From assembly GCF_035594765.1 (NCBI RefSeq), contig NC_085846.1, positions 119,027,190 through 119,091,189 of the forward strand: DNA of 64,000 nucleotides, given 5' to 3'. Position numbers: made by a program. Source of the stretch: Anolis carolinensis. Its lineage: Eukaryota. Positions 63,301-64,000 of the stretch are shown here, piece by piece; position 1 is the first letter of the stretch; each line of letters starts with the position of its first letter.

Positions 63301-64000
63301 GAGGAAACTGTCATCGATGGTAGAAAAATTGTGGTTGTTGATACTCCTGGGTTTTTCGACACCAATTCAACAACCAAAGAAACTATCAAAGAAGTGAAAA
63401 AGTGTGCAAGCCTTTGCAGTCCAGGTCCACATGTGATTATACATGTCATGCAATTGGCTCCTTTCACGAAGGAGGAAAAAGAAGTAGCTAAATTAATCCA
63501 AGATGTTTTTAGCCTTAAAGCAAAGGCTTATGGAATCGTTCTGTTCACCCGTAAAGAGGGTTTGGGAGGAAGGTCTTTGAAAGAGTTCTTAGAGGACGGA
63601 GATGAATCTCTTCGGGAGCATGTGGCCAAATGTGCGGGTGGGTGCCTGGCCTTCAACAACACGGCTGAAGGTCGGGAGAGGGAAGAGCAGGTCAATGAGC
63701 TGCTTGGCATGATAGATGCCTTGGTGAAGAAGAACGACAAGGCCCCTTGCTACACTGAGGACATGCTAGCCAGGGACCAAATCACCATGAGTAAGATCCA
63801 AAATATTTTAAGACGGAACGATTGTTGCAACATACTCTAAGAGGTGCGGCTGTGCCGCCCTTTAAATCAAATCCAAAACACACCTTGGTGATACTTTTAT
63901 TAGGCACAACCCCTCAAAAAACCAAGACCTGGTAGTATTAACAAATTTTATATCCACGTGCGGCTGGATCTACACTGGCACATAATCCAGTTTATGTATC

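What the first reader, a model, noticed from the sequence alone, without database searches (positions are those of the whole stretch)
63448..63564. Gene B lacks the conserved arginine finger and has an altered G4 motif
Seen: QLAPFT (CCT at 63460-63462) where A has QVARFT and C2 has QVGRFT; G4 reads TRKEG instead of TRKED; the ORF, P-loop and CaaX are intact. Known: this Arg (R103 in human GIMAP7) is the dimerisation-dependent catalytic residue. Inference: B may be a hydrolysis-poor scaffold or receiver that needs its head-to-head partner to supply the Arg.
Basis: partly seen in the sequence, partly recalled or inferred. Interest (0 to 1): 0.68.

Follow-up and report, generated by a model that had tools for sequence, protein, structure and literature searches.

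The report
Anole GIMAP GTPase lacking arginine finger
One intact immune-type GTPase gene in a green anole gene cluster has lost the arginine that such enzymes lend to a partner to trigger GTP breakdown, so it probably acts as a non-activating partner; similar losses are common among reptile copies of this family.

Summary
Gene B (exon 1 62030-62048, exon 2 63170-63840, + strand) reads MQLAPFT, with CCT at 63460-63462, and TRKEG, with GGT at 63559-63561. Its P-loop, DTPG, AFNN and C-terminal CNIL are intact. The window is Anolis carolinensis, not human. B matches RefSeq XP_062839783.1 over all 222 exon-2 residues. Two gene models that by accession version look older differ from B at one other residue and keep Pro, Gly and a third odd residue, Gly157 where 116 of 122 relatives have Arg. 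An assembly slip is therefore unlikely.

B does not look like a decaying gene. Its splice sites are conserved, it departs from only 1 of 73 highly conserved family columns, it shows no rate acceleration against A, and dN/dS against A is 0.38.

The change is not rare. 35 of 120 close relatives lack the Arg, through at least 17 independent changes, and one Arg-less lineage is shared by elapid, colubrid and viperid snakes. Human GIMAP7 itself has Glu at the "G4 Asp" position.

Most likely B still pairs through the G interface but cannot stimulate its partner's GTP hydrolysis, and it may bind nucleotide weakly. The closest precedent is human GIMAP6, which inhibits GIMAP7. No evidence singles out C2 as the partner. 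Interest is modest.

The parts
62030..62048 (+). Gene B, coding part of the ATG exon (ATG GCC GCA TTC AGT ACA G), followed by the donor GTAAGA at 62049
   Evidence: Aligns with A's ATG exon (6564-6582) with the same phase and donor. The N-terminus MAAFSTA of RefSeq XP_062839783.1 (P0126) matches this exon.
62049..63169 (+). Gene B intron (phase 1), acceptor ...ttgttttAG at 63168-63169
   Evidence: Gene A has the same acceptor context (gttttAG at 8300-8306).
63170..63840 (+). Gene B main exon: the whole AIG1 G domain, the C-terminal helix, the CaaX box and the stop TAA at 63838-63840
   Evidence: Pfam AIG1 E 5e-64, 215.9 bits against a cut-off of 27. PDB GIMAP7 E 2.5e-48. AlphaFold2 pLDDT 90.7. 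Foldseek best match 3zjc_B, E 1.4e-21, TM 0.81.
63196..63219 (+). B P-loop (G1) GKTGVGKS, intact
   Evidence: compared with relatives.
63460..63462 (+). CCT = Pro97 (exon-2 numbering) at the position of the trans-acting catalytic Arg (conserved box QLAPFT)
   Evidence: Relatives have R in 85 of 120, H in 17, C in 4 and P in 3.
63547..63561 (+). G4 region TRKEG; Gly130 (GGT, 63559-63561) replaces the Asp or Glu
   Evidence: Relatives have D in 98 and E in 10 of 122. Residues 127 and 130-132 lie in the modelled G interface.
63640..63642 (+). GGG = Gly157 where 116 of 122 relatives have Arg (just before strand beta6 and the AFNN G5 motif)
   Evidence: The modelled strand covers residues 158-161. 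The role of this residue is unknown.
63826..63837 (+). C-terminal CNIL (CaaX ending in Leu), preceded by a second Cys (CCNIL)
   Evidence: 87 of 120 relatives end in Cxxx, 72 of them with L as the last residue.
8307..9031 (+). Gene A main exon (its ATG exon is 6564-6582). Arg codon CGT at 8597-8599, TRKED, ends WCNIL. Identical over 240 of 240 residues to XP_062839782.1.
53074..53916 (-). Gene C2 main exon: a GIMAP resembling human GIMAP2, GIMAP1 and GIMAP5, with a hydrophobic C-terminal tail. Arg codon CGC at 53623-53625, TRKED. Head-to-head with B.
   Evidence: PDB GIMAP2 E 6.6e-60. The exact 5' exon boundary was not determined.
25497..26231 (-). C1: a copy of C2 inside a 9.9-kb duplication, with an 11-bp deletion in the coding exon that shifts the frame

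Best explanation
B is a maintained, prenylatable GIMAP (AIG1-type) GTPase paralogue of the green anole. It keeps the fold, P-loop, G3, G5 and G-interface. It has lost three things: the Arg that GIMAPs insert into the opposing monomer's active site (Arg to Pro), the acidic G4 residue (Asp to Gly), and a family-conserved Arg before beta6.

The most likely mechanism is that B pairs through the canonical G interface with Arg-bearing paralogues such as A, C2 or others. In such a heterodimer the partner's Arg reaches B's nucleotide site, while B presents Pro to the partner's site. The partner's GTP hydrolysis is then not stimulated, and B-B pairs have no Arg at all. B would therefore act as a non-activating or inhibitory subunit that prolongs or caps GTP-bound assemblies on membranes. 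At best it receives catalysis, and its own nucleotide affinity is possibly weakened by the G4 change.

Shown here: the residues, gene integrity, overall conservation, recurrence of the same loss in relatives, and a model with canonical geometry. Inferred: binding, loss of trans-activation, weaker nucleotide binding, prenylation and any cellular role.
For: Residues and alignment to GIMAP7.

Gene integrity:
- The ATG exon, donor, acceptor and phase are shared with A.
- The RefSeq model XP_062839783.1 matches all 222 exon-2 residues.

The changes recur in other gene models: UniRef A0A803TC16 and XP_003219420.2 differ from B only at residue 34 (P/S) and keep QLAPFT, TRKEG and CAGGC.

B is not decaying:
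- It departs from consensus at 1 of 73 columns that are at least 85% conserved. The median over 119 family members is 3, and A departs at 5.
- Relative-rate counts for B against A are 25 against 26 with outgroup P0008. All 10 outgroups give p of 0.18 or more.
- Nei-Gojobori dN/dS for A-B is 0.38, with dS 0.67, over 222 codons.

Arg-less GIMAPs persist in evolution:
- There are at least 17 Arg/non-Arg changes on a 121-row tree.
- In a snake clade with 100% support, 12 of 13 rows have His or Thr across Notechis, Naja, Ophiophagus, Thamnophis, Pantherophis, Vipera and Crotalus, while Python keeps Arg.

Complex model of A(1-205) + B(1-205) + 2 GTP + 2 Mg:
- Score 0.83, best of 3 controls 0.02.
- The mark was reached by 51 of 78 solved complexes and 2 of 108 mismatched pairs. 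On eukaryotes it was reached by 71 of 105 solved pairs and 2 of 126 unrelated pairs.
- The runs agree in at least 97% of contacts, and the partner's pLDDT is at least 88.
- The interface is the canonical one: A residue 97 touches B 11-12 and 33-35, B 96-97 touch A 12, and residues 127 and 130-132 of both chains are in the interface.
- Caveats: GIMAP2 and GIMAP7 dimers are solved, so the pass may come from memory and shows likeness only. My alignments were not used. The job carried small molecules, unlike the calibration set.

Literature (passages read):
- Human GIMAP6 has no GTPase activity and no detectable GTP binding, yet it inhibits GIMAP7 through the G interface. GIMAP6 R134D still inhibits, while D167W and L70D reduce inhibition (PMC9111091).
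- In septins, loss of the Arg finger coincided with duplications and a shift to hetero-oligomers (abstract and discussion of PMC11238149).
Against: - No biochemical data exist for B or for any Arg-less GIMAP.
- No orthologue above 67% identity was found in another species. It is therefore unknown whether Pro97, Gly130 and Gly157 are old and conserved or recent. B's own lineage dN/dS could not be computed.
- The pairwise dN/dS and the rate tests average over long branches and would miss recent relaxation.
- 29% of relatives lack the Arg, which can also be read as the site being dispensable in this clade.
- Which of Glu129 or Gly130 is the base-recognising acid was not settled. I used the K-x-D spacing of the NKxD motif, which is textbook knowledge. 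B keeps Glu129, and human GIMAP7 works with Glu at position 130.
- A tree-aware test found no coupling between Arg loss and G4 loss.
- The complex model cannot tell whether B binds, or which paralogue it binds.
- Expression of B was not examined; no RNA data were available here.
Confidence: 0.45

Rival explanations
1. B is still an ordinary, competent GTPase. In this sauropsid CaaX-GIMAP clade the conserved-box Arg is dispensable, because another residue or a cation does the job or because intrinsic hydrolysis suffices. On this view the substitutions are close to neutral.
For: 35 of 120 relatives lack the Arg, with many different replacements (H, C, P, G, T, L, K, F, Y, W, A). Replacements that varied suggest tolerance rather than a new specific function. 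His and Cys, the commonest, are what CpG deamination of a CGN codon yields (my inference). B keeps the P-loop, G3, G5 and Glu129. Human GIMAP7 is active with Glu instead of Asp in G4 (alignment; activity from PMC9111091).
Against: In the only GIMAP whose catalytic mechanism has been worked out, the Arg is described as the catalytic finger (PMC8066113 legend; Schwefel 2013 abstract, recalled). Only 7 of 120 relatives combine non-Arg with a non-acidic G4 residue. The Arg-less snake lineage is conserved as His or Thr rather than drifting.
Confidence: 0.2
2. B is a redundant paralogue at an early stage of decay, or tolerated without a function. The three odd residues would be the first hits of relaxed selection.
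For: No orthologue was found in A. sagrei or Sceloporus among the annotated proteins searched. GIMAP clusters turn over quickly: the same window holds a frameshifted copy, C1. Three departures fall at otherwise conserved sites.
Against: The ORF, ATG, splice sites and CaaX box are intact. Only 1 of 73 highly conserved columns is changed, fewer than in A (5) and below the family median of 3. There is no rate excess against A or against seven other iguanian paralogues (six Anolis, one Sceloporus). dN/dS against A is 0.38. The tree places B outside the Anolis A-type clade, so it has stayed open for a long time.
Confidence: 0.15
3. Loss of the G4 acid changes which nucleotide B binds, for example relaxed base specificity, so that B is an NTPase or NTP sensor with altered specificity rather than an inactive one.
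For: In the NKxD motif the Asp sets guanine specificity (textbook knowledge of Ras-like GTPases). B has Gly there, which is nearly unique: one other cell among 122, and that one sits in a gapped row.
Against: Glu129 next to it is retained and the motif register was not settled. No structure or binding data exist. The ligand in the model was imposed by me and was not scored.
Confidence: 0.05
4. The Pro is a sequencing or assembly error, or a private allele of the reference animal.
For: Reads and population data could not be examined here.
Against: Three database models carry QLAPFT, TRKEG and CAGGC. One matches B exactly, and the other two share a P34S difference, which shows they are not copies of the same sequence. 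That they come from two separate assemblies is my inference from the accession versions and from recall. Three separate non-synonymous departures would need three errors.
Confidence: 0.03

Closest known systems
Human GIMAP7 (PDB 3ZJC), a soluble GIMAP with dimerisation-stimulated GTPase activity
   Same: Best sequence match in the PDB (E 2.5e-48) and best structural match (E 1.4e-21, TM 0.81, 40% identity). Same AIG1 G domain with a C-terminal helix. RefSeq names B 'GTPase IMAP family member 7'.
   Different: GIMAP7 has the Arg (lqlgRyt) that is described as the catalytic finger; B has Pro. GIMAP7 has TRKEE and B has TRKEG. The GIMAP7 chain aligned continues well past the point where B ends in CNIL. 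The RefSeq name is an automatic label, not orthology: B groups with iguanian CaaX-GIMAPs.
Human GIMAP6, an inactive GIMAP that inhibits GIMAP7 (Yao et al. 2022, PMC9111091; passages read)
   Same: A family member with no GTPase activity and no detectable GTP binding that still engages an active paralogue through the G interface and lowers its GTPase activity. This is the behaviour I propose for B. GIMAP6 R134D still inhibits. Because the Arg-to-acid spacing of 33 residues matches B's 97 to 130, R134 and D167 probably correspond to B Pro97 and Gly130; this is my inference, as the GIMAP6 sequence was not examined.
   Different: GIMAP6 keeps both the Arg and the Asp. Its inactivity has another, unexplained basis, and it carries a GABARAPL2-binding tail. 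B has neither residue and has a CaaX box instead.
Human GIMAP2 and GIMAP5, membrane-anchored GIMAPs that bind GTP but do not hydrolyse it alone
   Same: The 'receiver' precedent: GIMAP7 promotes GTP hydrolysis by GIMAP2 (PMC8201404; PMC9111091). B would likewise depend on a partner's Arg and is probably lipid-anchored.
   Different: GIMAP2 keeps the Arg (tqlgRyt) and THKED and has a transmembrane anchor. In this window it is C2, not B, that resembles GIMAP2 (E 6.6e-60).
Septin and paraseptin GTPases that lost the Arg finger after duplication; septin pseudoGTPases
   Same: This is the same superfamily logic. A G-interface Arg finger is ancestral in septins, Toc34/159 and AIG1/GIMAP, and its loss coincides with duplications and a shift from homo- to hetero-oligomers (PMC11238149, abstract and discussion read). 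Toc33 R130A is listed in the PDB as a dimerisation-deficient mutant (3def title).
   Different: These are different families and assemblies: septins form filaments and Toc proteins form the chloroplast translocon. No GIMAP case is described in the papers that my searches returned.

Membership tests
AIG1 / GIMAP GTPase family (Pfam PF04548) | AIG1 domain profile match above the curated cut-off | tested here: met
   215.9 bits against a cut-off of 27, E 5e-64, covering profile positions 1-202 of 212.
AIG1 / GIMAP GTPase family (Pfam PF04548) | G1 P-loop GxxxxGKS and G3 DxxG | tested here: met
   GKTGVGKS and DTPG are present.
AIG1 / GIMAP GTPase family (Pfam PF04548) | Conserved box between G3 and G4 carrying the trans-acting Arg (typical of the family, not universal) | tested here: not met
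   The box is recognisable ([13 protein letters not shown]), but the Arg is replaced by Pro. 35 of 120 relatives also lack the Arg, so this feature does not decide membership.
AIG1 / GIMAP GTPase family (Pfam PF04548) | G4 [R/H]-K-x-[D/E] with an acidic last residue | tested here: not met
   B has R-K-E-G. Relatives have D in 98 and E in 10 of 122. The motif register is inferred from the NKxD spacing.
AIG1 / GIMAP GTPase family (Pfam PF04548) | Fold of the solved GIMAP structures (G domain plus a C-terminal helix folding back on it) | tested here: met
   AlphaFold2 pLDDT 90.7, pTM 0.88. The top Foldseek matches are GIMAP7, GIMAP2, GIMAP1, GIMAP5 and GIMAP4 with TM 0.68-0.81.
AIG1 / GIMAP GTPase family (Pfam PF04548) | Location in a cluster of GIMAP genes | tested here: met
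   A, C1, C2 and B all lie within this 64-kb window.
AIG1 / GIMAP GTPase family (Pfam PF04548) | Guanine-nucleotide binding and dimer-dependent hydrolysis | not testable with these tools
   This needs a biochemical assay.
PseudoGTPase or non-catalytic GIMAP regulator (GIMAP6-like behaviour) | No GTP hydrolysis, with or without nucleotide binding | not testable with these tools
   Only sequence indications are available: Pro97, Gly130 and Gly157.
PseudoGTPase or non-catalytic GIMAP regulator (GIMAP6-like behaviour) | Binds an active paralogue through the G interface | tested here: inconclusive
   The A-B model scored 0.83 against a best control of 0.02 (the mark was reached by 51 of 78 solved complexes and 2 of 108 mismatched pairs; the runs agree in at least 97% of contacts; partner pLDDT at least 88). 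Like complexes are solved, so the pass shows likeness and not that this copy binds.
CaaX-prenylated proteins | C-terminal Cys-aliphatic-aliphatic-X | tested here: met
   B ends in C-N-I-L. Asn is not aliphatic, so the match to the motif is loose. The same CNIL ends 19 relatives. Prenylation itself was not testable.

The most novel reading that the evidence does not exclude
Loss of the trans-acting Arg is a recurrent, selected way by which expanding GIMAP clusters make their own negative regulators. On this reading B, like the Arg-less lineage shared by elapid, colubrid and viperid snakes, is a dedicated 'GAP-dead' subunit, possibly nucleotide-free. It locks Arg-bearing partners such as A or C2 in the GTP-bound, assembled state on membranes. 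The ratio of Arg-less to Arg-bearing paralogues would then set the lifetime of GIMAP scaffolds. This would be a GIMAP counterpart of septin pseudoGTPases and of GIMAP6, reached by a different molecular route.
Probability: 0.3. Interest if true: 0.55.

Novelty: new variant of a known kind. Interest (0 to 1): 0.3.

Why it matters
GIMAPs control lymphocyte survival and autophagy in mammals. Their regulation by homo- and heterodimers is known from only a few human pairs: GIMAP7 with GIMAP2, and GIMAP6 with GIMAP7. A natural, intact paralogue without the catalytic Arg, in a family where about three in ten close reptile relatives lack it, offers a simple test. The test is whether asymmetric dimers with one giver and one non-giver are a general regulatory device of this family, as has been argued for septins. 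If B proves to be an ordinary enzyme, that would show the Arg finger is less essential in GIMAPs than the single human example suggests. Either way this is a modest, family-level point, not a new kind of system.

Tried and rejected
- Orthologue search. Protein searches with exon 2 of B found nothing above 67% identity outside A. carolinensis, in proteins of 122-389 aa (1023 proteins at E 1e-30 or better, best 120 listed) or of 390-2000 aa (best 66%). Ten A. sagrei and Sceloporus clusters held no hidden B-like member. Caveat: only cluster representatives are shown. B itself was hidden in the cluster of P0014 and was found only by listing its members, so orthologues may be missed. Proteins shorter than 122 aa were not searched. 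The genome collection on offer holds bacteria and archaea only and was not used, so no vertebrate genome DNA was searched.
- Coupling of Arg loss with G4 loss. A plain 2x2 table looked positive (odds ratio 3.5, p 0.011 for non-Asp; 3.3, p 0.053 for non-acid). Independent pairs on the tree gave a median p of 1. I rejected the idea as unsupported.
- Gly157 as a nucleotide-pocket residue. I dropped this idea. The residue sits at the start of strand 158-161, at the opposite end of the strand from AFNN. It is not in the modelled interface, and fish relatives have Gly there. Its role is unknown.
- B as a fast-evolving member of the Anolis A-type clade. This is not supported. B lies outside that clade (support 100/98; 98) and shows no rate excess. 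I ran no AU test.
- Literature. Schwefel 2010 and Schwefel 2013 are not held, so the residue number R103 and the trans mechanism rest on recall, the PMC8066113 legend and the alignment. Searches returned no paper describing an Arg-finger-less GIMAP: 'GIMAP7 + arginine finger + GIMAP2', 'GIMAP7 + R103', 'GIMAP + pseudoGTPase' and 'GIMAP + arginine finger'. Searches 'GIMAP + Anolis' and 'GIMAP + CaaX' returned no paper on reptile CaaX-GIMAPs; for these I saw listings only, apart from passages of PMC4201521. Supplementary files were not opened.
- Human origin. Considered and rejected: the window is Anolis carolinensis.

Full report
**What is at the coordinates.** The + strand at 63448-63468 reads ATG CAA TTG GCT CCT TTC ACG (MQLAPFT), and 63544-63564 reads TTC ACC CGT AAA GAG GGT TTG (FTRKEGL). 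Gene A (main exon 8307-9031) has MQVARFT, with CGT for the Arg, and FTRKEDL. C2 (53074-53916, minus strand) and its copy C1 have TQVGRFT and FTRKEDL. B keeps [12 protein letters not shown] and AFNN, has an open frame to TAA at 63838-63840, and ends in CCNIL.

**Gene structure.** B's main exon starts at 63170, after ...ttgttttAG, in phase 1. Gene A has the same acceptor context and phase at 8307. A's short ATG exon (6564-6582, MAEWNE plus one base, donor GTGAGA) aligns with 62030-62048 upstream of B (ATG GCC GCA TTC AGT ACA G, donor GTAAGA). I searched with exon 2 alone and did not join the exons. The full-length protein I refer to is a database record.

**Whose genome, and is the Pro real.** Exon 2 of A is identical over 240 of 240 residues to XP_062839782.1. 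Exon 2 of B is identical over 222 of 222 residues to XP_062839783.1 ('GTPase IMAP family member 7', 229 aa, Anolis carolinensis). That protein's N-terminus, MAAFSTA, is what the exon at 62030 predicts. The window is therefore green anole, not human. Two other models, UniRef A0A803TC16 and the 779-aa fused model XP_003219420.2, differ from B at one residue only (Pro34 to Ser). Both carry QLAPFT, TRKEG and [10 protein letters not shown]. That they come from an older assembly is my reading of the accession versions and of memory. Reads and population data were not available. The run of N at 48058-48431 was left untouched.

**Family and fold.** B matches Pfam AIG1 at 215.9 bits against a cut-off of 27. 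Its best PDB sequence matches are human GIMAP7 (2.5e-48), GIMAP4, GIMAP2, GIMAP5 and GIMAP1. An AlphaFold2 model has pLDDT 90.7 and pTM 0.88, and its best structural matches are GIMAP7 and GIMAP2 at TM 0.81. In the GIMAP7 alignment B Pro97 lies on the Arg of 'lqlgryt' (chain position 108 of a 305-residue chain). Gly130 lies on a Glu, because human GIMAP7 reads TRKEE while GIMAP4 reads TRKDD and GIMAP2 reads THKED. The G4 acid is thus Asp or Glu in the solved human proteins.

**How unusual the residues are.** I aligned the 120 listed hits with A and C2.
- The Arg column holds R in 85 of 120 filled cells, H in 17, C in 4, P in 3 and scattered others.
- The G4 column holds D in 98 and E in 10 of 122.
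- Non-Arg together with a non-acidic G4 residue occurs in 7 of 120 relatives.
- On a 121-row tree built without the two columns, Arg/non-Arg needs at least 17 changes and acid/non-acid at least 11.
- One clade with 100% support holds 12 Arg-less rows (His or Thr) out of 13, from Notechis, Naja, Ophiophagus, Thamnophis, Pantherophis, Vipera and Crotalus. The Python row keeps Arg. An Arg-less lineage has therefore been kept across those three snake families.
- His and Cys are the replacements expected from CpG deamination of a CGN codon (my inference). B's CGT-to-CCT change is a transversion.

B is the only row combining non-Arg, a non-acidic G4 residue and loss of the Arg before beta6. The other row lacking all three canonical residues, a Notechis protein, has the conservative Glu at G4. 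That third site, Gly157, is the only one of 73 columns conserved at 85% or more at which B departs.

**Is B decaying?** The evidence says no.
- B departs at 1 of 73 filled highly conserved columns. The median over 119 family members is 3, A departs at 5 and C2 at 20.
- Relative-rate counts with ten outgroups show no excess in B against A, for example 25 against 26 with a Podarcis outgroup; all p values are 0.18 or more. There is also no excess against seven other iguanian paralogues, six from Anolis and one from Sceloporus.
- Nei-Gojobori dN/dS for A-B is 0.38 at dS 0.67.
- Trees place B outside the 12-row Anolis A-type clade (support 100/98; 98). In one search B is sister to Sceloporus plus that clade, with SH-aLRT support of 86, which is below the tool's 95% mark for a well-supported branch.

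These tests average over long branches and cannot date the three substitutions.

**Orthologues.** None above 67% identity turned up outside A. carolinensis. The caveat is that the search shows only cluster representatives, and B itself was hidden in another protein's cluster. No vertebrate genome DNA could be searched here.

**Mechanism.**
[quoted passage not shown] That the Arg goes to the opposing monomer is my recollection of the Schwefel 2013 abstract; that paper is not held.
- The model of A(1-205) with B(1-205), two GTP and two Mg gave a score of 0.83 against a best control of 0.02. The mark was reached by 51 of 78 solved complexes and 2 of 108 mismatched pairs. The runs agree in at least 97% of contacts, and the partner's pLDDT is at least 88.
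- In that model A residue 97 touches B 11-12 (P-loop) and 33-35, B 96-97 touch A 12, and residues 127 and 130-132 of both chains are in the interface.
- GIMAP dimers are solved, so this pass shows likeness to them and does not show that B binds. My alignments were not used, and the ligands are outside the calibration.
- The geometry fits an asymmetric pair in which A gives an Arg to B and B gives a Pro to A.
- The closest precedent is human GIMAP6. It has no GTPase activity and no detectable GTP binding, yet it inhibits GIMAP7 through the G interface. Its R134D variant still inhibits, while D167W does not (PMC9111091, passages read). The 33-residue spacing suggests that R134 and D167 correspond to B's positions 97 and 130 (inference).
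- In septins, loss of the G-interface Arg finger accompanies duplication and hetero-oligomerisation (PMC11238149).

The inference is partly right. B can only receive catalysis, but so does every GIMAP. The distinctive prediction is that B cannot give the Arg. No evidence favours C2 over A or other paralogues as the partner. The loss is common in the family, which lowers the surprise.

**Also in the window.**
- C2 resembles the membrane-anchored human GIMAP2, GIMAP1 and GIMAP5.
- A 9.9-kb duplication (21142-31046 and 49073-58984, 99.1% identical) carries C1 and C2. C1 has an 11-bp deletion that shifts its frame.
- An uninterrupted 1596-aa Ty3/gypsy-type gag-pol frame and an 841-aa BED/hAT transposase frame are present. 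I only described them.

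Noticed in passing
window 21142-31046 and 49073-58984: A 9.9-kb direct duplication, 99.1% identical (9,921 aligned columns, 62 mismatches, 9 gaps), about 27.9 kb apart. The second copy begins about 640 bases after the N run at 48058-48431. It could be a recent tandem duplication or an assembly artefact.
   Followed up: partly
window 25497-26231 (-), gene C1: This copy of C2 has an 11-bp deletion in the coding exon, within the stretch that in C2 encodes [11 protein letters not shown]. The deletion shifts the frame and ends the ORF early (...LIRKHVCFQ*). It also has a Val-to-Ile change next to the P-loop. It is probably a pseudogene copy.
   Followed up: partly
window 15685-20475 (-): An uninterrupted 1596-aa frame with Ty3/gypsy-type gag, aspartyl protease, reverse transcriptase, RNase H, integrase and Tf2-type SH3 domains. 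It looks like a young LTR retrotransposon. LTRs were not looked for.
   Followed up: partly
window 42463-44988 (-): An 841-aa open frame with a BED zinc finger and a hAT C-terminal dimerisation domain, that is, a hAT-type transposase or a domesticated ZBED-like gene.
   Followed up: partly
window 63826-63837 and 9017-9028; relatives: B ends in CCNIL and A in WCNIL. 87 of 120 sauropsid relatives end in Cxxx, 72 of them with Leu last, the CaaL type that by textbook rule directs geranylgeranylation. My search 'GIMAP + CaaX' (listing only) returned no paper on prenylated GIMAPs. B's extra Cys next to the CaaX Cys could be a palmitoylation site (inference).
   Followed up: partly
window 31499-33198; 45092-46324; about 38700-40700: Three tandem arrays. 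The first has a 50-bp unit with about 30 copies at 99% identity, and the second has a unit of about 155 bp. The third is a repeat that gives several overlapping long ORFs at 38.7-40.7 kb. They were not characterised.
   Followed up: no
window 63640-63642 (B Gly157): The only column conserved at 85% or more at which B differs from the family: Arg in 116 of 122 relatives, Gly in B and in three fish relatives. Its role is unknown. It sits at the start of strand beta6, away from the modelled dimer interface.
   Followed up: partly
protein P0127 (XP_003219420.2, 779 aa): This gene model, which by its accession version looks older, fuses three GIMAP domains: an A-like domain at 94%, B at 99.5%, and a third domain 74% identical to A. 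The third gene probably lies just beyond the window's end, downstream of B.
   Followed up: no
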